NCBI GenBank assembly: GCA_905331295.1
Contig: CAJNYD010000529.1
Span: 62,001 to 93,434 of the forward strand
Reading direction: 5' to 3'
Length of the DNA: 31,434 nt
From: Rotaria socialis
Taxonomy: Eukaryota
The notes under the pieces: generated by a model
Seen by the model: only the letters and a program-made list of their open reading frames with translations
Told to the model about the DNA's origin: nothing
The model's database searches: none
Made by a program: the position numbers and the translations under genes
Shown here: piece after piece, positions 14,336 to 29,610 of the stretch
Position numbering within the stretch: the first letter of the stretch is position 1
Layout: every line of letters begins with the position of its first letter

Positions 14336-15335
14336 CAGGGTTGCCAGCCGTACCCCATTTGGGGGTACAGTACCCCCTTTTGAGCCTTTTGTACCTCAAA
14401 AACAATTGTACCTCTAAGGTACGCATTTTGTACCCCATCTGCATTTTTCAATGTTACGACTACTATCATCCATATTTTGGTTGAAACTAAGAAAATTTCT
14501 GTCTCTTTATCCGACATTTACTATTGATAAAGATGTGAAGCGTCAATTATATTGGTTGGCTGCTAATGGTCATGTTTATGAAGAATTCAACAATGACATA
14601 TGCAACGAGTTTCGTGATGAAGATAATCTCATTCACAAATCGACGACCGAAAATCATGAAAGAGAAGTGGAATTTCGGTCTGATCAATTTTGGGCTTTTC
14701 TTTTTGTAAAGTCGAAACCAATGTGTATTGAAATGTACAAAATTATTTCTTATGTGTACTCAATTCCTTGCTCGAATGCATTTGTTGAAGGCGTTTTTAA
14801 TCAAAGAAAAAGCGCATGGACAGCCAGTCGTAATTTGACAGTGAATGAAACGATAGCTGCTGAATTGAAAATCAGATTTAATAGTACTATGACATGTGAA
14901 GATTTTTTTCTTTTGCTCAAACACAACCGCAACTGATAGAGTGTGGCAAAAAGCAACAAAAATACAGTTTCGAAAAAAAGCGTGCAACAGTTAGTGTAAA
15001 TATAAATCGAGAAGGTTCGCTTTGAGTAAGCATTGTTTTATTATGATTGAGTTGAATATATGTATGACAAAATGAAATTTTATTGTGAACATATTTATTA
15101 GAAAATAAAGATTTCAATTTGAAAGCTAGACTTTATAGTAAAACGAAAAACTGAGAATGCCCCTTCCTGATTGAAAATAGTTTTCGAAATTGATTTCCGC
15201 AGCCGATGACCAGTGTGAAAGATGTAAACTGCGTACCTCATGAATGTACCCCATTTACAACTGAGTTGTACCTAACGTGTACCCCATTCCGAAATCAGTA
15301 TACCCCATTTGGGACCTGAACAGCTGGCAACCCTG
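14336..15335 (+). mobile_element. Internally deleted hAT DNA transposon (1000 bp)
   Basis: TIRs CAGGGTTGCCAGC(C/T)GT at both ends. Perfect 8-bp TSD ATTACGAA (14328-14335 and 15336-15343). Subterminal GTACC(CC) repeats. Internal transposase remnant. Confidence 0.95.
14451..14936 (+). pseudogene. hAT transposase C-terminal dimerization-domain remnant
   Basis: DQFWAFLF...YKIISYVYSIPCSNAFVEGVFNQRKSAWTASRNL..ETIAAELKIRFN matches the hAT dimerization motif (S.P.S.A..ER.FS). The N-terminal and core regions are missing. Confidence 0.85.
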
Positions 15336-17892: not shown

Positions 17893-20800
17893 CGTCTGGC
17901 CACCAGATTCAAAATATAATACAGATATTCACTATCTTATGCTTTTTTCCCGTCTTCTCTTGTTTATGTGCCTAGTCATTCTAATTTATATAGAAATTAA
18001 ATCCAATATTCTCCTTTAACATTCTTTTATTCTTTTATTCTCTTAAACTCTGATAGCCAAAATCAGTTCTCTGAGTTCTTGATAAGCAGAATTAATTGTC
18101 GAAAAGATTCTCATAAGTAATATTGATTCTGTAAGCATCTGGTTACCAGAATGTACTTACATATACTATGGTTAGCACTAGGGTACTTGGTTTGAATGGT
18201 AAAATATTTTTTGGGTAGAAGATGGTGTTGAACTATGATCCATCAGCCTTGTCGTATATTAAAAATGTCCCCAAATTGAAAATTCCTATTTGGTCACCTG
18301 AATTGACCGTATTTGTTTTATTCTCCACAAGTGTGGATATGGTATAGAGATGTGTCTGGAGATTTCAATTTGCAGCAAAGGATAGCCAACCGATTAAATG
18401 GTAGAGTTAAATTAATTATTCGTGTTTTATCGCCTCTAGTTTGTGAAATATAGAGGAAATAGAATGATAGGTCATTGATTCAACACAATCGAGGGTAAAC
18501 TTTGTCAACAACGACTGCGAGTCTATTGCTCAATTGTATTAGCTTCCTAAGAAAAATAACAGATTAATCCTGTAACACCAGTAATAATTACACATTATAG
18601 GATCATCAAACAAAGCCATCGTCAGTGAACAAATACGATGATGCTGATTATAGCCAAGCATCTGAAAGACACTCACGAAAAACGGAAGCAAATGAAAGTA
18701 AGTAAAGTTTTTAAGTTGATGGTTATATAGGAGTCTTCTTGAAATGATGTTGAGTTTAAAAAAAAAACTTTCTGCTTTAATAATATTGCTTCATCAAAAT
18801 TGGAATAAATACACACAAGGCGTCGAACTGATGTAGGCATGCAAAAATGCAATTATTATCTATTGCTGACTATTTTATTTTTATCGGCATGATCTTTAAT
18901 TGTTTCGCAAGAGTTTTCCTTCAATATAGATGTAAACATCATAGAGTCAATAGAATCCTATTAGAACTGATATTTTTTAGACAATATCACAGTCAATAAC
19001 TTCATTTCTTTTGGAATAATGTTTTTCTTCAATGTTGAGATCCTTCTCACGAATTGTGATTCGAGGTTTTTCGGTAGAACATACCTCTCTGTAGATCGTA
19101 TCATCAATGACTCAAAAAGGAATAAAAATGTCTCAATAGCATTTTTTATGCAATGGTAATCTCTAAAACTAGGAGGTGTGCAGAGCCTTTTAAGTTTCTG
19201 TCTTCTAGGCGAGTCCCGAACCTATAAAATAAACTTTGCACAAGACAGCAAGATGTTGTAGAGGGTATTGAAATCATTTATTTTTCGTGAAAAACTATTT
19301 TCGTGTGAGTCAAATTTGGGTAAAAGACAGAACCTTCAAAAGTTCTATGGATCTCCGTCTTTTTTACAGAGCAGTAGATGCCTGAGTGAACACTTCTCAT
19401 ATATTGAGCATCTAAATGAGATGAGCACTCGTCAGATAGCACCAAAAATTTCTGTTGGATGTAAGTTATATCAAAATTGAATTTTGAATTTGATTGACAA
19501 AATGACCCTCAATTTAAAATTTTGATACTAACATGATTTAAGGTGCTATTCACGCTTAATAGCCAGTATTGTAGTGGTTCTTCCGGCCTATCCTGTCAAT
19601 ATGTACTGAACAAGTAACGTTCATCGACATCGAAAGTCGATTCAATGAACCCTAGGCTGGCAGTGTTGAGGGGAATAAATGCATTGACAGGACAGAAAAT
19701 CGGTTGTTTGTGCCAGCAGTTGGTGATGAGATTTTCAAACAGACCTGTAAAGGGAGTGGAAATAAGTGAAACCGAGGTAAGAATTAGACGAAAATTAAAG
19801 GTTTCAAGTAAAAGCACTGAAAGTGAAGACGAAAGACAGACAAAATGGGACTCAAAGGTCCTTAAGGAGGGAAGAGGCTGAGTCATACCTAGCCATACAA
19901 CTATATGGTTAAGAAGCTTCATGATGGTTAGTTCAAATTTCCGTAAGGGGATCAGCTTACCCCTCCACTGACTCCATCTCCAGAGCGGGCTGTTTCACAT
20001 GGCCATGTCATGCATTCACCATGGTTTGTGCCGGAACAATACCCTTCGTGTCATAGAAATGGTCATTTGTATCACAGACATGGTCGCTTGTGTCATTGTT
20101 ACAGGCAGACACAGGTGAATTACGGTTTCTAGACCCTATCCTTTCAGTCTAGGGGAAAACTAAGAGCCAGACGAAGAAAATCATAACAATAGCAATTTAT
20201 AGATCTTGTAAAATAATATTCATTCACTTTCAACGATGTACATCCTTGAAATACCTGATTGTCTTGGGCTTGTTTGAGAAAATATTGTTATAATCAAGTG
20301 ACTCTGCAGAGAGCACTTCAATAGCCAATATGGTTACTATCATCAGTTATCTGTGTACTCGTAGATGCCTAGTCACAACAAAGATACAGCTTTTTCTCTA
20401 TTCATTATAAAAGAATGACATCTTCGTTTGATTATGAATCGCTCAGGTCAACAACGCACTAATTCAAATTCATCATCGACTGAAGGACAAGATTGGAAAT
20501 GTCGCCAATGTGGTTACACAAATAACGATAGTAATAAATCGTGCGAAACGTGCAACGCTCGTAAACCAATGCGTCCACGTATTGAAACACGGCCTAGTTA
20601 TGTAGAGAGGAGTCCCTCATCATCGTCATCTAATCACCGTACTCCTTCTCCAGAAGATGAAAGTATACCTAATCGACCAGATCCAAGAAGTTCTGTACGA
20701 GATCGGCGACGCAGTTCCAGCGGTGAACACGTAACGGAAAAAGATAGTTCTTCCGACAGTGAAAAACCGTACTATAATTCGTCCACTCAATTAAGAAGTC

Positions 20801-23800
20801 ATAGAAAGTCTCAAAATCCAGATGCACCGAACGAAAAGGAAAAAAAAACGCAACCACATGAAGGCAAGTATTCGGCCTCAAGGTTACATACGATTAAGTA
20901 TTTCCTTATAATTTTAGCCTCGTTTCATGAACAATCTTCAACTAGAGGATCTTCATCTTCAGTTAGGGACGATAGCAAAATTTTCGAAGACGACTATGAG
21001 CATAAACCCAAGAAGTCTACTGCAAAAAAGTCTTCGAGTGGTAATCAAAACTATGATGATGAACTGAGCAGTAGCAAGATGCACTCCAGTTTGAGCTCTT
21101 CACCAACACCACCGCCAGATTATTCGTCATGTATTGCTTCACAAAAGCAGCAATCGACCCTTCTTCGATATGATTCAGAAGGTGAACAATCATCATTGCA
21201 ATCTGTTGGACTATCTTCATCGAAAAATAAAAGTTCTTCGCATGATGTAAACAATCCTTCTAATTTGAAGCAGGGCTCTTCGAGGGATGATGAACGAGAT
21301 GAACCTCTTTTAACAAAGACATCTGATAGACATGTCCCTTCCAAAGGATCTTCAAAACACATTGCATCTGGTTCATCTTTATCGGTCGATGACAAAAAGG
21401 GATCCCGCGTCTCTGCATATGACGATGATCCTTATCAATCATCTGCAACAGCTGCCAAACCAATGAAACCACCTACAAGTAAGTATCTAATTACTATCTG
21501 AAGCCTGTATCCATAAATCATATTCTATTCAATTGCAATCATTGCTGTGTTTTTCATAGTAATATCGACAAAAATAAAGCTAACATAAATTCATTATCTA
21601 ATTTATCACATGAAATCATGAACCCAGGCTAATAAATCTTTCCCTACCCCATCTATATTATTTCGGTGAATCTACCAATAGTATATCAACATTTTTACAG
21701 CAAATGAAGATGCACTTACTGTAAATGAGAAGAAACCTTGAAATGCTATCTGGTCTCTATGACGAATATATTGACCATTTAAGTATGCAAAATATTTCAA
21801 TATCTTCAGAGTTTATGCATCAAAATGACTAATTTCTTAGAGCTCCAGATACGTGCGATGCACTATTATTTTAAGGATTTCATATGTGTAAAAGAGTTTC
21901 AATTAAATGTCTAGAGATAACATCCGATTCAAATGGATTTCCTGAAAGTATGCTGCCCTTGCACTGAGTGTTCTGAAGAATAGTTTCAATTACAGCTACT
22001 TGATATCCACACAATTTTATTTCTTCGTTCGAACTATAGTCACGACTTAATCGTGTTCAACTTGTAATGAGCTAGCCGAAATGCGACTCTTTTTTGATAA
22101 ATCTTCAAAGCACATCTATTTCATCAATTCAAAACATTGTTTTTCAGGTCCGTCATCGTCAAAAAAATCAAACAAAAGTGAACCTATCATAGTTTATATA
22201 CCAGATTTGCCTGTTAACATAGATAGTAATCAATTACTCGAAAGTATGATTCGGCAATGTTTAGAACTTAAACATAAACAAAAAATAGTCGATGTTAAAT
22301 GTGATGCCAAATTAGGCATTGGAATTGTCTACTTACATACTGATGAAGATAAGCATAATTTAACTAATATTATCGAAAAAATTATAATTGAAACATCCAA
22401 AAATACAATGGTATCATTTGTCGATGAACTGGAACTAGTATCTTATATTGTTGTTGATAACATGGATACAAAAGATCTTCCATCAGTAGATGACATATGT
22501 CGACGATGGGTTCATCTGTACAAGGTGCAATCGGAACCACAATGTGAACGACTATCTGCTCAATTTCCGAACATCTATCGAATAATAACACATTCATTAG
22601 ATGAACTACTCCCTGCAATGTCAACTAAGGAGTTCTCAATCAATAAACAGTTCGCAACTGTTTACTTCCGTGCTGATTGTGCTTTCTTTGAAGATTTACC
22701 ACGAACGGCAACATTAGATCGATTGACCGACGCAATCAGTAGTCAAATCTCTGATAAATACATGTCCAAAGAATTAATACATATACAGTATAATAAAGCA
22801 AATGGTAATGCTATTGTGCTGACATCAGGAAGAGCTCGAATATGGGCCCTACATAGTTCAATTCTATTAGATGGGCGCTCTTTTATGAAAAAGGACAGCC
22901 TTGCTTGCCGCTTATTGATACGCACCGTACCCAAAGGGGTGTCAACTTCACTTATCCGAAATCATAAAATGTTTGGTGATGCTGTTGTTAAAATATTCCC
23001 TAGCGATGAACATGTCGTTCTCGAACTTTCTGATCGAAGTATTTATGAGAAGTGTATTGATCAAGGTGTTGTACGCATTGATCAACACTTATTAGGTATT
23101 GAAGCTTATACGTTTACAAATAATCCTGAAAATAGTGAAATTGATGCTGAAAATTGGTATGAAACAGAGATGGTTGATCATAAGCCCGATATAATGCCAT
23201 TTATTTCTAATCCTCAACATCCTATTTTTCAATTTAAATGGAATCCAAGAGTGTTTTTAGAACAACTCCGTTTGTGGACATCGAATGAACGTAAGACTAA
23301 TGAAAAAGATCAAGTTAAATTTGAAAAATTATGTAATCTGAAACGTCATCTATTACGAATGACAGTTATGTTGAATACAATTGGTGTAGTAAAAAGAGGC
23401 TTTTATCGTATAGGTGACAAAGAAATCAAATTAAAACCAGATCGATTAAAAACAATTCTCTATGATCATAAGTCAAAATTGCAGCGTGGTAAGACAATGT
23501 CGTTATCGCATGCTACAGAATTCCCGTATAAATCTACATCAGTTAGTGTAGTGAATGAAGACTGTTTGATAGTTTATAAGAATCTAGTAAATAAAGGTTG
23601 CCGACCAGTTGTTCTTAATATGGCTAATGCTACCAGTCCAGGTGGTGGCTACAAACGAGGAGATGGAGCTCAAGAAGAAACACTTTTTCGTCGCTCGAAT
23701 TATTTCCAAAGTCTCGATCTTGAGTTAGATGATGGGAAACCAACAGCACGCTTCTATTGTAATTCAAATTGTGATTTAGAACCATTAGGTAAAGGTGATC

Positions 23801-26800
23801 GAATGTATGAAATGGACGAATTCGGGGCAATCTACACAGCAGGATTGACAGTTTTTCGGCAGCCTGAAGATACTGGCTACACTTTCATGGATATACCAAT
23901 GTACGATGTATGTGCCATTGCAATGGCTGCCTATCGTGATCCGAAAATTGAAAACGACCTTCTCACTTCCAAATACTCTCTTGGAATGCGAAAAAAAATT
24001 GAAAATATATTTGCTATAGCTTACCATCAAAAACATGATAGCCTTGTTCTATCTGCACTTGGTTGTGGTGCATTTAGAAATCCGCCAAAACATGTTGCAG
24101 CAATATTCAAATCAGTTATTGAACAATATGCTGGATATTTCAAATACATCTATTTTGCTATTGTGGATGATCATAATGCAGGCCAAGACTTGAACCCAAC
24201 TGGAAACTATCGTCCTTTTCATAAATTACTCGATAATTTAGAAGAAGAACCAAAACGACAATATCTTGTAGACATGATGATTGGACCTTGGCGAATTTTA
24301 GATCAAAAAACTAGTAAAGAAATAACGTTAAGTGATATTCGAATCCGCTATTTGGATCCATGTTTTCATGGAGGAAAATGCAACGATTTGAACACTGAAC
24401 AACATTGTCGTGAATTTTCACATCCACCTTTATGTCCTTACACAAATGATACAGCTCCATGTAAAAAGAAAAATGATACTCAGCATATGCTTTGGTTCAG
24501 ACATCGTGAAAAATGTTCATATGGTGGAGAATGTGAATTAATAGAAACTGATTTTATGCATTCGAATGAATTTGAACATCCTGAATTTTGTCGAGATGGT
24601 GGTCGATGTGAAAACATGGGTGCTGAACATCTTAAAGCTTATCAACACTTGCCGCTATGTAAATATCGTCGTGAATGTGTCAGTTTCAATAGTGGATCAG
24701 TTGAACACTGTCAAAGCTACCGTCATTGTGTACCGATGTGCCGCTTTGGTCATTTCTGTACCAAATTTCATGACGAAAAACATTTAAGCGAAGAAAACCA
24801 TCCTTTTTTACAACCATGTTCATTTACTCCATTTCATTGCCGACAATACAACAGTTTTGGTGAGGCAAAAGATACAAAAACATTAGGGATCGATGTTCAA
24901 AATCACTGTTTTCACTATTCGCATGTTTGCCGGTACGGCCGTCAATGTCGTGATAAATCAGACATTCATTGGAAAACTACAATTCATATTGCTCGTAACA
25001 TCTGTTCATTTGGTGATAAATGTGCAAAAACATATGATGAAGATCATTTAAATTCGTTCTCACATCCAGGTATAGCTGACATTCGCCTTTTATGCAGTTA
25101 CCCAACGTATAAATGTCGTGATAGGCGAAAACCTGAACATATTATAGAATATCGACATCATGGTGGATACGACAACAGTGGAGTTATCGGCTGTTTTGGG
25201 CAGAACCACAAAATTGATTTTGTTAAAAATCAAGAAAGAATTATTCAAACAATAAATACCTATGTGAAAGATACACATTCCAAACAGCTATCTGTATCGT
25301 TAGAAGTTCAAAAATGGGTTAAGGGTCTACAGCCTATTCATCGATGTTCCAAATTAATTTTCGAATCGATACTTGTACATGGCCATGTCATGTCTCGTGA
25401 TCATATGGAAAATTTAAAAAGATCCTATTTCGCAGCTCAAGCTGTTCAAGAACATAAACGTGTGCGTGGAATATTTGATCGATATAAAATGGCACCTATC
25501 GAAGATAATGCTAAAGAATATATTAAAGCTATTGTTTCTCTGGAATACGGTAAAAAATATGCTGCTGGCGACACAACAGCATCAGGTGGATCTGATGATA
25601 ATGACGATGTAATACGTAGAAAAGAAAGAATTTTACACACTTTAATCAAACCAGACGAACTTAATATTATAAAACAATGCGCCATTGATATTGCTGAAGC
25701 CTCGTGGAATCTTCATAAAGCTCCAACTGGTATCAAATATGAAACTGATAAAGCGTTAGGTACTGATAAACATGTTTTTAGTATTCTTGGGCCACATCTC
25801 GGTCATTATTATGGAGATATAATTCTTGTATTTAAAAGCGAAGTAATGCTACACCCAGACGCCAATTTCTCTCCACAAGCAGGCACATCATTTGCAAGTG
25901 GTAGTACATTTAAGCATCGACCATGGGTTAAAGATCCTGGTACTGAACCTGAAAGAATAAAATGTTTTCATGAATCGAAATTGCATTGTGCTGTACCGGG
26001 ATACGAATATGCAGCAGCAGCAGAACTTATCGTTATATCAGGATTACTGAAAAATACAATAAATGTTGATGTGCGAGACATTATGACTCGTTGGAAGAAA
26101 GTTGATTCACATCAAGTACTCGAGGCGCATCTACCTCAATTGGTACCTCTCGATTATATTGAAGAAGTATACATAGCAAAAAATCTATTTGATTCGCTGA
26201 CTCCAGCAGCACAAGAGTCAGCAAAGAAAATTTTCCGTGATTCACTTCATATTACCAAGCATGAAATTAACTTGACTGATACCGGTGGTGGAGGTTCGCA
26301 GCCATCGGATAAGAGTCGTGCTGACTATCAAGATTATGTGATGAGTGCTTTAATAGAAAAATTTAACAAACGAAAGGACCGTACAAGACATTTGCATGGC
26401 TCTGTCCTCACTCTAGCACCAAGTGCATTTACGGATCACATTATGTTACCGCCAACAATCGGTCAAGCGCGTACTCAATATCTTCGAACTCATAAACAGA
26501 GCTCGAATTCCGACGACATATATATTTATTGGGAAACAATGTATGGTGATATGATGGTCACTCTTTCGGATGAACGAATCGATCCTGATAAGACTCAACC
26601 GGATATTCAATGTCTTGTTTGTTATATTGCTGAGAGACCATCAACTATAACTGCCACTTACAGTGAAACATATTCATATTTAAATGCTGGCGAACCATAC
26701 AGGCATAGTGTTATAAAGATTACTGGTAAATGTTCGAGTAGTTCACGTACATTTCATCGTGGTGCTAACATTGAAAATTTTCTTACCTACTGTCTTAAAA

Positions 26801-27948
26801 TCGAGAAAAAAACGGGCCAAGCAACACTGTCACACGCTGGGCCAAACAGTATTTATTGTTATGAAACGATAACGTGTAGATTTTCGAAAACAACACTTGA
26901 TTTAAGCAAATTAGACTACGTTCACGTAAGTGCTGGCTCGCAAAAAGTACCAATCAGAAATTTAACTATTAACTTCGAAAAAATTCCCGATTTACATCCA
27001 TTATTCGATAGAAATTTCAAGCGAGGGGATGATCCATTTCATAATAGGAAATCGCCTCATCTACGTAGCCGCTCTCCATCTCCCAATATTGCACAATCAA
27101 CTCGCGATATGCCTCCATCGTTTATTCGAAAAGCTGCGAATGCTGTTGCTGGTCTTTTTGGTTATGATGCTGATGATAAAAGCCTTGGTCCCTGCCCCTA
27201 TTCAATCAATTGTCTATTTCAAGGAGAATCGCAACATATGAAAAAATATTCTCATCCTTGTCCATACTCTGAACTTTGCACTAATAAAGAGAAAGAGCCT
27301 AATCTAACACATGAGCCGCACCGAGCAAAACAATGTCCATCTAAGAGTTCTTGTCAAAAACTTCATGATCCTGTTCATCGAGCGCAGTATCGGCATCCAG
27401 GCTACCCTGACTTTCTTATTCCATGTCAAGATGGATCGAGTTGTCATAATAAAACATCGGATCATCGAATAAAGTATTCACATGGTGAGCAAGGAGAAGT
27501 AGTTCGAGATAAAATACGTAGAACGGTATGCCAATTTGGAACAGAATGTCGGAATCAGGATGACAACGATCATTGTTCTAAATATTCACATCCTGGTGAA
27601 AATAGAGTTAAACATGCGCGCAGTTCAAGTCCTGAACGAATCGCTTGTCGCCACGGAAGCGATTGTCGCGACAAAAATGATCGTCAGCATCGATCAAAAT
27701 TTTCACATCCAGATGAACGTGAATCTTCACCTAGTTCAAACTCTGCACGAATCACTTGTCGGCATGGAAGCGACTGTCGCGACAAAAATGATCGTCAACA
27801 TTGCTCAAAATTTTCACATCCGGATGAAGATCGAAATCAAGGTCATAGAGGCTCAAATCAAGATAAAACGCCATGTCGACATGGTAATAAATGTTTTGAT
27901 AAAGATCCTCATCATCGCTCTAAATATTCGCATCCAAACAAAAAATAG
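16999..27948 (+). CDS. ~2309-aa multidomain ADP-ribose protein: RanBP2 ZnF - Ser-rich linker - RRM-like repeats - TIGR02452/DUF2263 PARG macrodomain - 10 PBZ-like fingers - DarT-like ART domain - beta-rich domain - 8 PBZ-like fingers; exons 16999-17052, 18601-18697, 20447-20863, 20918-21478, 22148-27948
   Basis: Splice phases are compatible at every junction (0,1,1,1; 6930 nt). Motifs: WKCRQCGYTNNDSNKSCETC (RanBP2); VLNMANATSPGGGYKRGDGAQEETLFRRS and LVLSALGCGAFRNPP (microbial PARG); repeated C-x5-C-x6-8-H-x5-H(P). The 5.8-kb last exon is solid; exons 1-2 are inferred from splice signals and from conservation in the paralog. Confidence 0.85.
17623..18387. mobile_element. MITE-like element with long TIRs in intron 1 of the large gene
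   Basis: GACTATCCTTTGCTACAAATTGA...CACACTTGTGGAGAATAAAACAAA..CCAATTCTGGTGACC (17623-~17750) is the reverse complement of 18260-18387 (...GGTCACCTGAATTG...TTTGTTTTATTCTCCACAAGTGTG...TCAATTTGCAGCAAAGGATAGCC). TSD not clear. Confidence 0.8.
19650..20154. mobile_element. Possible degenerate non-autonomous TIR element in intron 2
   Basis: GC-richer block bounded by imperfect inverted ends CCCTAGGCTGGCAG / CTTTCAGTCTAGGG (piggyBac-like CCCT start), but the flanks TGAA/GAAA are not a clean TTAA. Confidence 0.3.
27637..27828 (+). repeat. Recent intragenic tandem duplication (111-bp period) of a PBZ finger
   Basis: RI(A/T)CRHGSDCRDKNDRQH(R/C)SKFSHPDE is encoded at 27637 and 27748 with high nucleotide similarity. 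Confidence 0.9.
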
Positions 27949-28834: not shown

Positions 28835-29610
28835 TTAAAATTCATCTACGTTAACTCGCACTTCTGGATAGGCGTGCATTTTTGCGACATTGACAATCTC
28901 TTCGGTCTTATATGATGGATAAAGACCTGTTTGACCATTAGTTTTATCTGATCCTTTTGAAAATCCATCCCAATGATTTCCTTCTGTACCGATGATATCA
29001 CCTCGTTGAAAGCTAAATTCATTTGGCCAAACAGCTTTATTAGGTAGAAGAGCACGTTGATTATGAGCATTTTGTCCACCAAAATAATAAACATCATCAA
29101 GCGGCTGCACACGCCATGCACCATCAACTAATCGTTGTTGCATGATTTCATAGGCAACACGACAAATCTAAATTTAAAACAATAACAATACATCTTTCAA
29201 AATCTTTTCATTAGTTGCTAAGATTATCGCATAAATTCGAGATCTTCTCAATCAGACATTTCGCCTGCAAAATTTATTTGCTTTTAAGAAAAAGTATCAT
29301 ACCTGTGACGAGAATGTACAAACCAAATAATCACATAAAGAAAGAAAATGAATATCCAATAGTACACCTTTCAATGATTCTGTTCCGTATCTTGTATTCA
29401 ATTGGGCAGATTTTGCTACAGCTGTATCACCATAGAATATGTAATTTGGAAATCTAATTGTTAATAGAGAAATAAAAGAAATTATTTTCTATGGAAAATA
29501 AGCAAACAAACAATTCTTACTTTGAACGCGCATCACTAAAAACGGCCGGTTCATCAGTAGCTAGAAAAACTCGTTTTGTAAAATTTACATTTGGATTTTA
29601 ATATTCATAA
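28835..29610 (-). pseudogene. FUT8: 3' fragment of alpha-1,6-fucosyltransferase; exons ~29610-29521, 29453-29303, 29167-28835
   Basis: KRVFLATDEPAVFSDARSK|FPNY...[40 protein letters not shown]...LDDVYYFGGQNAH followed by an SH3 domain (GNHWDGFSKG..GLYPSYK). In-frame TAA at 29600-29598. No upstream FUT8 exons (HVRRTDK) are visible in the window. Confidence 0.8.

What the first reader, a model, noticed from the sequence alone, without database searches (positions are those of the whole stretch)
25327..26184. Cryptic DarT-like (nucleic-acid ADP-ribosyltransferase) domain
Seen: three motifs in the right order. (1) PIHRCSKLIFESILVHGHVMSR, His at 25339. (2) GTDKHVFSILG..YYGDIILVFKSEVMLHPDANFSPQAG. 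(3) HQVLEAHLPQLVPLDYIEEVYI, Glu at 26122-26124. As recalled, these parallel DarT/DUF4433 motifs YHITHxxNLxxILxxGGLL, HDYVPFYF...ILHL...FVFTDxxAA and QAEFLVxxxxPxxxVEEIGV (catalytic Glu). There is a helical insert between motifs 1 and 2. DarT modifies ssDNA bases, so an animal version would be notable. A related ART clade (DUF3626- or Tpt1-like) is an alternative, and the substrate is unknown.
Basis: inference. Interest (0 to 1): 0.85.

Follow-up and report, generated by a model that had tools for sequence, protein, structure and literature searches.

The report
Hidden ADP-ribose writer in rotifer PARG
A large protein of a bdelloid rotifer, a microscopic animal, holds an unannotated domain predicted to fold like the ADP-ribose-transferring enzymes of bacterial toxins; it shares one chain with an ADP-ribose-removing domain, so it is likely an overlooked reversible tagging enzyme, also found in several protists and in phages.

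Summary
The three motifs are at the stated coordinates, in exon 2 of a 2281-aa bdelloid (Rotaria) gene. His1087 and Glu1348 are kept in 116 and 120 of 120 homologs. The AlphaFold model (pLDDT 93) ranks SopF (Z 11.5), OspC3 and DarT (10.5) and CopC (10.0) among the top 8 of 48,161 chains, so the ADP-ribosyltransferase (ART) reading holds. Foldseek's best E is only 0.002. 'DarT-like' is too narrow. The catalytic strand (E-x-H-L-P) matches OspC3 E326/H328 (0 of 500 shuffles; DarT 44 of 500), the YG strand matches DUF3626/SopF-family proteins, no conserved Arg replaces DarT R51, and the fused eraser is a microbial PARG, not DarG. The family is wider than rotifers: 464 representatives, with the PARG fusion in Diphylleia, Pharyngomonas, Copromyxa and Gefionella, and copies in phage head-gene proteins. 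Best reading: an undescribed ART family, likely a one-chain writer-reader-eraser that makes PARG-removable O-linked ADP-ribose (0.4); protein modification as in OspC/SopF is the close rival (0.33). Activity and substrate are untested.

The parts
20434..21478 (+). Exon 1: RanBP2-type zinc finger followed by low-complexity Ser-rich sequence
   Evidence: Splice test reproduces P0003. Finger is weak in the window (PF00641 E 0.038), found in 5 of 24 homologs, best E 1.4e-05.
21479..22147 (+). GT-AG intron; contains the ATG (22081) used for ORF numbering
   Evidence: Only in-frame GT-AG join found in the tested ranges; 2266/2281 identity to P0003. No RNA join seen.
22148..23120 (+). N-terminal folded region, possibly RRM-like repeats (weak)
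   Evidence: No Pfam hit. Family profile hits two RBMS1 RRM chains near its start at E 0.4 and 0.75, not significant.
23377..24255 (+). Microbial-type PARG macrodomain with intact GGG-x7-QEE signature at 23641-23679 (predicted eraser)
   Evidence: PF10021 E 1.1e-20; solved bacterial PARGs hit at E about 1e-15; motif position. End coordinate approximate.
24361..25158 (+). First cluster of PBZ-like CCHH zinc fingers, 9 pattern matches (predicted reader)
   Evidence: Pattern matches; PF10283 E 7.6e-09 with 7 stretches over the whole ORF; APLF PBZ chains at E 0.026-0.076.
25171..26400 (+). Cryptic ART-fold domain of the SopF/OspC/DarT structural group (the finding; core 25327-26184)
   Evidence: AF2 pLDDT 93.1, pTM 0.91; Foldseek and VIA-align hits.
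25339..25341 (+). His1087, first strand, predicted NAD-binding
   Evidence: 116/120; strand E55-59 in the model.
25423..25719 (+). Variable helical insert between strands 1 and 2
   Evidence: Model helices at residues 85-183; low conservation.
25747..25749 (+). Asp1223, near-invariant acid 10 residues before F1233; possible counterpart of OspC3 D177 / CopC D172 (by spacing only)
   Evidence: 118/120, 109/111; block scan did not pick D177.
26122..26130 (+). Glu1348-x-His1350, predicted catalytic strand, matching OspC3 E326/H328
   Evidence: 120/120 each; best window in OspC3 is E326, 0/500 shuffles.
26374..27012 (+). ConA/galectin-like beta-sandwich (Methyltransf_FA-like in protist members), possible substrate or partner-binding module
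   Evidence: AF2 pLDDT 90.6; Foldseek lectins E 1e-4; VIA Z 11.2 CBM66, many ties; PF12248 in P0155, P0178, P0194, P0243.
27193..27948 (+). Second cluster of PBZ fingers (7 pattern matches) and stop codon

Best explanation
The domain is predicted to be an NAD+-dependent ADP-ribosyltransferase of an undescribed family in the SopF/OspC/DarT fold group, and it likely acts as the writer in a one-chain writer-reader-eraser that likely attaches O-linked ADP-ribose (to a ribose 2'-OH or terminal phosphate of RNA, DNA or an ADP-ribose chain) rather than modifying DNA bases. Shown: the gene model, the domain order, the conservation of H1087, D1223, F1233, E1348 and H1350, and the wide fusion with an intact PARG and PBZ fingers. 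Predicted: the ART fold (about 0.92). Inferred: His and Phe/Tyr bind NAD+, Glu1348 drives nicotinamide release, and the enzyme is active (about 0.8); the PBZ fingers bind the product or existing PAR and localise the protein; the PARG domain removes the product, which limits the linkage to one a PARG can cut. Inferred, weakest: a role in cell-autonomous defence or stress signalling.
For: Fold: the top 8 of 48,161 chains are all SopF, OspC3, CopC or DarT (Z 11.5-9.2; SopF rmsd 4.2 over 215 residues, DarT 3.6 over 179). Foldseek ranks SopF first (prob 1.00) and DarT third. Catalytic set complete in 116 of 119 and 67 of 81 ungapped rows while the insert drifts. PARG signature in 95 of the 120 listed homologs; PF10021 in 13 of 35 divergent members scanned, among them named proteins of Diphylleia, Pharyngomonas, Copromyxa and Gefionella, so the fusion is old or repeatedly kept. 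Bacterial-type PARGs hydrolyse RNA 2'-OH ADP-ribose (PMC11833690 passage) and PAR (PMC9967889 passage). PARG reverses phosphate-linked DNA ADP-ribose but not the protein-proximal unit (PMC8501950 passages), and human PARG does not reverse DarT's adduct. Other fusions are ADP-ribose or immune-type: ARTC, PARP, WWE, RING, GBP, LRR-Roc-COR.
Against: No activity data. Foldseek gave no match at E <= 0.001 (best 2.3e-3). Sequence searches against PDB and Pfam, and hhalign against OspC3 and DarT, were not significant. The two closest motif matches (OspC, SopF family) are protein-modifying enzymes. The PARG need not be cognate: phage members and the Symbiodinium and Paratrimastix members show no PARG, 23 of 120 homologs lack both PARG motifs, and some carry an ARTC instead. 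The PARG could simply erase PAR made by host PARPs. RRM evidence is not significant. No residue-level structural superposition was available.
Confidence: 0.4

Rival explanations
1. It is an endogenous OspC/SopF-like enzyme that mono-ADP-ribosylates a protein side chain (Arg, Gln or similar), with the lectin-fold domain recruiting the target as OspC's ankyrin repeats do; the PARG acts separately on PAR.
For: SopF is the top fold hit and OspC3/CopC tie with DarT. E-x-H-[LI]-P strand matches OspC3 E326/H328 (0/500), residues reported essential (PMC9239266 passages). H-F-E triad as in CopC. YG strand matches three DUF3626 proteins (0, 3, 18 of 500). An ARH gene lies in the same window.
Against: No Asp/Glu/His/Asn at the positions that line up with OspC3 D231 (A1267 0/120 and 0/115; T1269 1/120 and 2/115), a residue needed for riboxanation; the register there is by eye. 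The D177 and F188 pairings were not recovered by the block scan (best ungapped register put F1233 on F186, 164/500). PARG cannot cut the protein-proximal unit.
Confidence: 0.33
2. It is a DarT-type enzyme that ADP-ribosylates ssDNA bases and the macrodomain is its antitoxin.
For: DarT Z 10.5, rmsd 3.6; best DarT window for the catalytic strand is the catalytic Glu; conserved R1280, K1300 and H1344 could bind phosphates; phage versions lie in head-gene clusters.
Against: No conserved Arg in residues 1205-1232 (at most 7/120; at most 24/114 in the wide set), whereas R51 is essential in DarT. No His/Asn at the H119-like position. Strand match not significant (44/500). No PF14487 hit. The eraser is PARG, not DarG/TARG1/NADAR.
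Confidence: 0.08
3. It is an NAD+ glycohydrolase or a non-catalytic NAD+/ADP-ribose sensor built on the ART fold.
For: A small residue (Ala) sits where relatives carry the acceptor-activating side chain. Four bdelloid paralogs have Tyr for H1087.
Against: Glu-x-His and Asp are near-invariant from phages to animals. A PARG and PBZ fingers make more sense beside a transferase (inference).
Confidence: 0.12
4. The fold match is spurious and the domain is not ART-related.
For: Foldseek E only 2e-3; TM-scores 0.2-0.4; no sequence-level significance.
Against: Eight of eight top VIA hits are one ART subgroup, found without Foldseek; the viral library independently ranks DUF3626-type proteins on top; the conserved Glu falls on known catalytic Glu residues.
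Confidence: 0.05

Closest known systems
Shigella OspC / Chromobacterium CopC arginine ADP-riboxanases (PF06128)
   Same: ART fold (Z 10.5 / 10.0); His-Phe-Glu triad; E-x-H-[LI]-P catalytic strand; an acid 10-11 residues before the strand-2 Phe.
   Different: No acid at the D231/D230-like position; 100-residue helical insert; no ankyrin repeats; fused to PARG, PBZ and a lectin fold; chromosomal eukaryotic gene.
Salmonella SopF / DUF3626 (PF12294)
   Same: Best fold match (Z 11.5, 215 residues); YG-strand motif matches phage DUF3626 proteins; both families occur in phages.
   Different: No PF12294 hit; E-x-H-L-P instead of E-x-Q-x-H-G; no Asp after strand 4; need for an ARF cofactor unknown.
DarT1/DarT2 DNA ARTs (PF14487)
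   Same: ART fold (Z 9.2-10.5); His on strand 1 and Glu on strand 5; association with a macrodomain.
   Different: No R51/R52, no H119/Asn, Phe not Tyr, macrodomain is PARG-type; strand profile does not match significantly.
Adineta vaga PARG with PBZ repeats (noted in PMC4245714, citing its ref. 18)
   Same: Rotifer PARG plus several PBZ fingers was already noticed.
   Different: The passages read mention no transferase domain; whether that protein is a member of this family was not checked (figure not seen).
PARP14 and fused DarTG (PARP14 recalled, not tested)
   Same: Writer and eraser in one polypeptide.
   Different: Different ART clade and a different macrodomain class.
Phage polyvalent, head-packaged ART proteins (PMC9503650 passages)
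   Same: Phage members sit at the C-terminus of about 1100-aa multidomain proteins or beside terminase, portal and head-morphogenesis genes.
   Different: The domain has no PHROGs or Pfam family.

Membership tests
ART superfamily | ART core fold | tested here: met
   Predicted model; top 8 of 48,161 chains are ARTs, Z 9.2-11.5; Foldseek best E 2.3e-3.
ART superfamily | Conserved strand-1 His and strand-5 Glu | tested here: met
   116/120 and 120/120; both on predicted strands.
ART superfamily | NAD+-dependent ADP-ribose transfer | not testable with these tools
   Needs an assay.
DarT (PF14487) | Match to the Pfam model | tested here: not met
   No hit at E <= 10 for the domain or E <= 1 for 23 homologs.
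DarT (PF14487) | Catalytic Arg (R51/R52) in the loop before strand 2 | tested here: not met
   No conserved Arg in residues 1205-1232: at most 7/120, and at most 24/114 in the wide set.
DarT (PF14487) | Base-locking His119/Asn after strand 4 | tested here: inconclusive
   0/120 at A1267, 3/120 at Q1266; register set by eye, no residue-level superposition.
DarT (PF14487) | Cognate DarG/TARG1-type or NADAR antitoxin | tested here: not met
   Fused macrodomain is microbial PARG.
DarT (PF14487) | ssDNA base modification | not testable with these tools
   Needs an assay.
OspC/CopC (PF06128) | E-x-H catalytic strand and H-F-E triad | tested here: met
   Best window is OspC3 E326, 0/500 shuffles; all of H, D, F, E, H in 116 of 119.
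OspC/CopC (PF06128) | Second acid D231/D230 | tested here: not met
   No Asp/Glu/His/Asn column at 1263-1271 above 3/120; register by eye, but both plausible registers fail.
OspC/CopC (PF06128) | First acid D177/D172 | tested here: inconclusive
   D1223 is 118/120 at similar spacing (10 vs 11); the block scan did not select D177.
OspC/CopC (PF06128) | Pfam match and C-terminal ankyrin repeats | tested here: not met
   No hit; the C-terminal domain is a lectin-like sandwich.
OspC/CopC (PF06128) | Calmodulin activation | not tested
   Not examined.
SopF/DUF3626 (PF12294) | Match to the Pfam model | tested here: not met
   No hit in the window protein or in phage record L001 (whose control genomes also gave nothing).
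SopF/DUF3626 (PF12294) | YG-strand 3 motif | tested here: met
   0, 3 and 18 of 500 shuffles in three phage DUF3626 proteins.
SopF/DUF3626 (PF12294) | E-x-Q-x-H-G catalytic strand | tested here: not met
   Family has E-x-H-L-P; the DUF3626 form is read.
SopF/DUF3626 (PF12294) | ARF-GTP activation | not testable with these tools
   Needs a binding and activity assay.
Microbial-type PARG (PF10021) | Pfam match and GGG-x6-8-QEE signature | tested here: met
   E 1.1e-20; signature at 23641; definition from PMC4245714 passage.
Tpt1/KptA | Closest fold and H-H-h triad | tested here: not met
   Z 7.2, rank 16; a Glu is conserved on strand 5.

The most novel reading that the evidence does not exclude
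An ancient, overlooked eukaryotic ADP-ribosyltransferase outside the PARP and ARTC families that builds ribose-ribose (2'-O) links, that is ADP-ribose chains or RNA 2'-O-ADP-ribose, reads them with PBZ fingers and erases them with its own PARG. It would be a second, PARP-independent reversible ADP-ribose system, shared by distant protists, massively expanded in bdelloid rotifers, and the eukaryotic kin of the OspC/SopF effectors.
Probability: 0.15. Interest if true: 0.92.

Novelty: new variant of a known kind. Interest (0 to 1): 0.72.

Why it matters
Animals are generally held to have two main ART classes (PARP-like and ARTC) plus a few outliers (PMC7955679 passages). The SopF/OspC/DarT group is known, in the papers read, from bacterial effectors, toxin-antitoxin systems and viruses. 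An endogenous, intron-containing, multi-copy member in an animal and in several distant protist lineages, fused to its own PARG and PBZ fingers, would add a eukaryotic ART family and a single-protein system that is easy to assay. Its catalytic set is a mosaic (OspC-like E-x-H, SopF-like YG strand, no D231 or R51 counterpart), so its product may be a new linkage. It also bears on bdelloid stress and immune biology.

Tried and rejected
Sequence-level identification failed: Pfam, PHROGs, PDB sequences with a single protein and two profiles, and hhalign against OspC3 and DarT (probabilities 0.1-0.3%, though searches placed their best segment on OspC3's E-x-H strand). Block scans for strand 1, the Asp loop, strand 2 and strand 4 did not single out the OspC or DarT counterparts; only 3 blocks x 5 targets were shuffle-tested. 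No member found in GTDB genomes by two motif scans (exact short patterns, weak evidence of absence) or in GenBank phages by tblastn. No whole genome is held, so copy number in this genome and flanking synteny are open. The protein atlas gave no answer. RNA: no RNA holder on record; contigs of four guessed-RNA runs cover pieces only and show no exon join; not used as evidence. A complex prediction of the domain with the Arf domain of P0055 gave 'no answer'. Direction of gene transfer was not established: bdelloid (14 rows) and phage-like (9 rows) sets are each one side of a branch (100/100) and do not group together in the best tree, but the AU test does not reject grouping them (p 0.198). Earlier findings of this scan: none in three look-ups.

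Full report
Setting. The window is eukaryotic (Six homeobox, RD3, SH3, ARH and ARTC-type genes) and the finding lies in a 1955-codon frame at 22081-27948. The best homolog is P0003 of Rotaria socialis, 99% identical over the domain. A GT-AG intron (21479-22147) joins the frame to an upstream exon and gives 2281 aa with 2266 identities to P0003. Domain order: RanBP2 finger, an N-terminal folded region (RRM-like only weakly), microbial PARG (E 1e-20, intact GGG-x7-QEE), nine PBZ-like fingers, the cryptic domain, a ConA/galectin-like sandwich and seven more fingers.

Observation. In the 120 listed full-length homologs (of 182 found), H1087 is kept in 116, D1223 in 118, F1233 in 116, Y1244 in 119, E1348 and H1350 in 120, while the helical insert drifts. 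Every animal name among these hits is a bdelloid (Rotaria, Adineta, Didymodactylos), with many paralogs per species.

Fold. An AlphaFold2 model of residues 1031-1440 from a 60-row alignment has pLDDT 93.1 and pTM 0.91. Foldseek found nothing at E <= 0.001, but ranks SopF first and second (E 2.3e-3 and 7.8e-3, prob 1.00 and 0.99), then DarT (E 0.2), with OspC3 and CopC lower. VIA-align over 48,161 chains, independent of Foldseek, puts only this ART subgroup in its top 8: SopF Z 11.5 (rmsd 4.2, 215 aligned), OspC3 10.5 (4.0, 207), DarT 10.5 (3.6, 179), CopC 10.0, DarT1 9.2; Tpt1 is 7.2 (one search agrees). In the viral library three of the top ten hits come from phages in which I then found PF12294 (DUF3626) matches. 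These near-ties span DNA-base, Gln and Arg acceptors, so fold cannot name the substrate.

Which relative. DUF3626 is the SopF domain (PMC6682159, passages). CopC has an H-F-E triad, E325/H327 (OspC3 E326/H328) are essential, and D172 and D230 are needed for riboxanation (PMC9239266 and PMC11598138, passages). I confirmed the OspC3 numbering on the natural sequence. A profile of the family's catalytic strand scores best exactly on OspC3 E326 (25.6; next window 2.2; 0 of 500 shuffles). It also lands on DarT's catalytic Glu but weakly (44 of 500), and on the Glu of two of three DUF3626 proteins (5 and 111 of 500; the third missed). The YG-strand block matches all three DUF3626 proteins (0, 3, 18 of 500), not OspC3 (499) or DarT (282). 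The strand-2 block was significant for none, and the His, Asp and strand-4 blocks did not pick their presumed counterparts, so the D1223/D177 and F1233/F188 pairings rest on spacing alone. DarT needs R51 and H119 (PMC9967889, passages; PMC11543638, passages). The family has no conserved Arg in residues 1205-1232 and no Asp, Glu, His or Asn column after strand 4. It is thus a mosaic that fails membership of DarT, OspC and DUF3626, and is best treated as its own family.

Spread. A profile search of 1.84 billion representatives gave 464 hits at E <= 0.001, 150 listed. Of 30 looked up, 9 carry an organism name: Diphylleia (4), Pharyngomonas, Copromyxa, Gefionella, Symbiodinium and Paratrimastix. 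PF10021 is present in 13 of 35 divergent members scanned, including the first four genera; other fusions are LRR-Roc-COR, GBP, WWE, PARP plus EF-hands, kinase and TPR, and in bdelloids RING, ARTC, Arf and FN3. Several names come from transcriptomes of predatory protists, so contamination by other eukaryotes is possible, but these sequences fall outside the bdelloid clade. Phage members keep His, Asp, Phe and E-x-H. They end about 1100-aa multidomain proteins (InPase E 2.5e-46 in L001) or follow terminase and portal genes (L010), the setting described for head-packaged ARTs (PMC9503650, passages). In a 54-row IQ-TREE (210 columns, insert left out; rows chosen by me from 112 that passed a gap filter) the bdelloid and phage-like sets are each fully supported and lie apart among protist rows, with an unresolved backbone and no root. 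Joining them is not rejected (p-AU 0.198). An old eukaryotic family with losses, and transfer from a protist into bdelloids, both remain open.

Mechanism. The strongest handle on the product is the fused eraser. The PARG signature is in 95 of 120 bdelloid-set proteins and recurs across distant lineages. Bacterial-type PARGs cut PAR and RNA 2'-OH ADP-ribose. PARG reverses phosphate-linked DNA ADP-ribose but not the protein-proximal unit (PMC8501950, passages), and human PARG leaves DarT's adduct. If writer and eraser are cognate, the product is O-linked to ribose or phosphate, and PBZ fingers would read it. That premise is inferred, not shown: members without PARG exist and the nearest motif relatives modify proteins. 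Hence 0.40 for this model against 0.33 for protein modification, 0.12 for NADase or sensor, 0.08 for DarT-type base modification and 0.05 for a spurious fold.

Novelty. Seven full-text searches showed no title or abstract describing this domain or a eukaryotic OspC/SopF/DarT-group family; for most listed papers I saw only the listing. Passages were read in 14 papers: those cited above plus PMC7955679, PMC12560355, PMC6264785, PMC12220480, PMC10809525 and PMC4245714. The last notes an Adineta vaga PARG with PBZ repeats, with no transferase in the passages seen. No whole text and no supplement was read, and the library lacks most subscription papers, so a listing in a supplementary table of an ART survey cannot be excluded. 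The PARP14 comparison is recalled. Verdict: a real, conserved, predicted ART domain of an apparently undescribed family; not a DarT; substrate open. Interest 0.72.

Noticed in passing
window 6635-8609 (-) and 10050-10871 (-): An ADP-ribosylglycohydrolase gene in at least two pieces (PF03747 E 4e-49 and 3e-06) and an ARTC-type ART (PF01129 E 2.5e-05) lie within 15 kb of the finding: a local cluster of ADP-ribosylation genes.
   Followed up: no
P0008, P0009, P0011, P0041, P0139: Close Rotaria/Adineta paralogs carry an NAD:arginine ARTC domain and no PARG hit, so two predicted writers share one chain; P0008 is among the window's nearest rows in the tree.
   Followed up: partly
P0055 (Adineta ricciae): An Arf-family GTPase domain (E 1e-34) is fused upstream of the fingers and the ART domain; SopF needs ARF as cofactor. 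May be a gene-model join.
   Followed up: partly
L012:23-3451; P0178: Protist-like protein with this domain, the Methyltransf_FA sandwich, EF-hands and a PARP catalytic domain; EF-hands recall calmodulin activation of OspC.
   Followed up: no
P0214: The domain follows an eIF3c N-terminal-like segment (PF05470 E 5e-13); a table in PMC11598138 lists eIF3 as an OspC substrate. Could be a chimeric model.
   Followed up: no
P0201, P0260, P0227, P0283, P0258, P0302: Fusions to LRR-Roc-COR, GBP, WWE, kinase, TPR and (precomputed) SH2 domains suggest use as an effector module in immune-type proteins.
   Followed up: no
P0053, P0091, P0098, P0112: Four bdelloid paralogs have Tyr for H1087 and lack H1344 while keeping E-x-H: a possibly altered or inactive subfamily.
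   Followed up: no
L007:4672-7433: The phage copy of the domain is split over two frames at about 6513; sequencing error or real break not examined.
   Followed up: no
L001:3186-6374 and L002:2487-5873: These phage proteins appear by eye to hold a further ART-like motif and an HExxH-type motif upstream of the domain; neither was confirmed by Pfam.
   Followed up: no
window 656-1027 (+), 4267-4965 (+), 28835-29143 (-), 14451-14936 (+): Ordinary neighbours: Six-class homeobox exon, RD3-like gene, SH3 exon, weak hAT transposase fragment (E 0.079).
   Followed up: no
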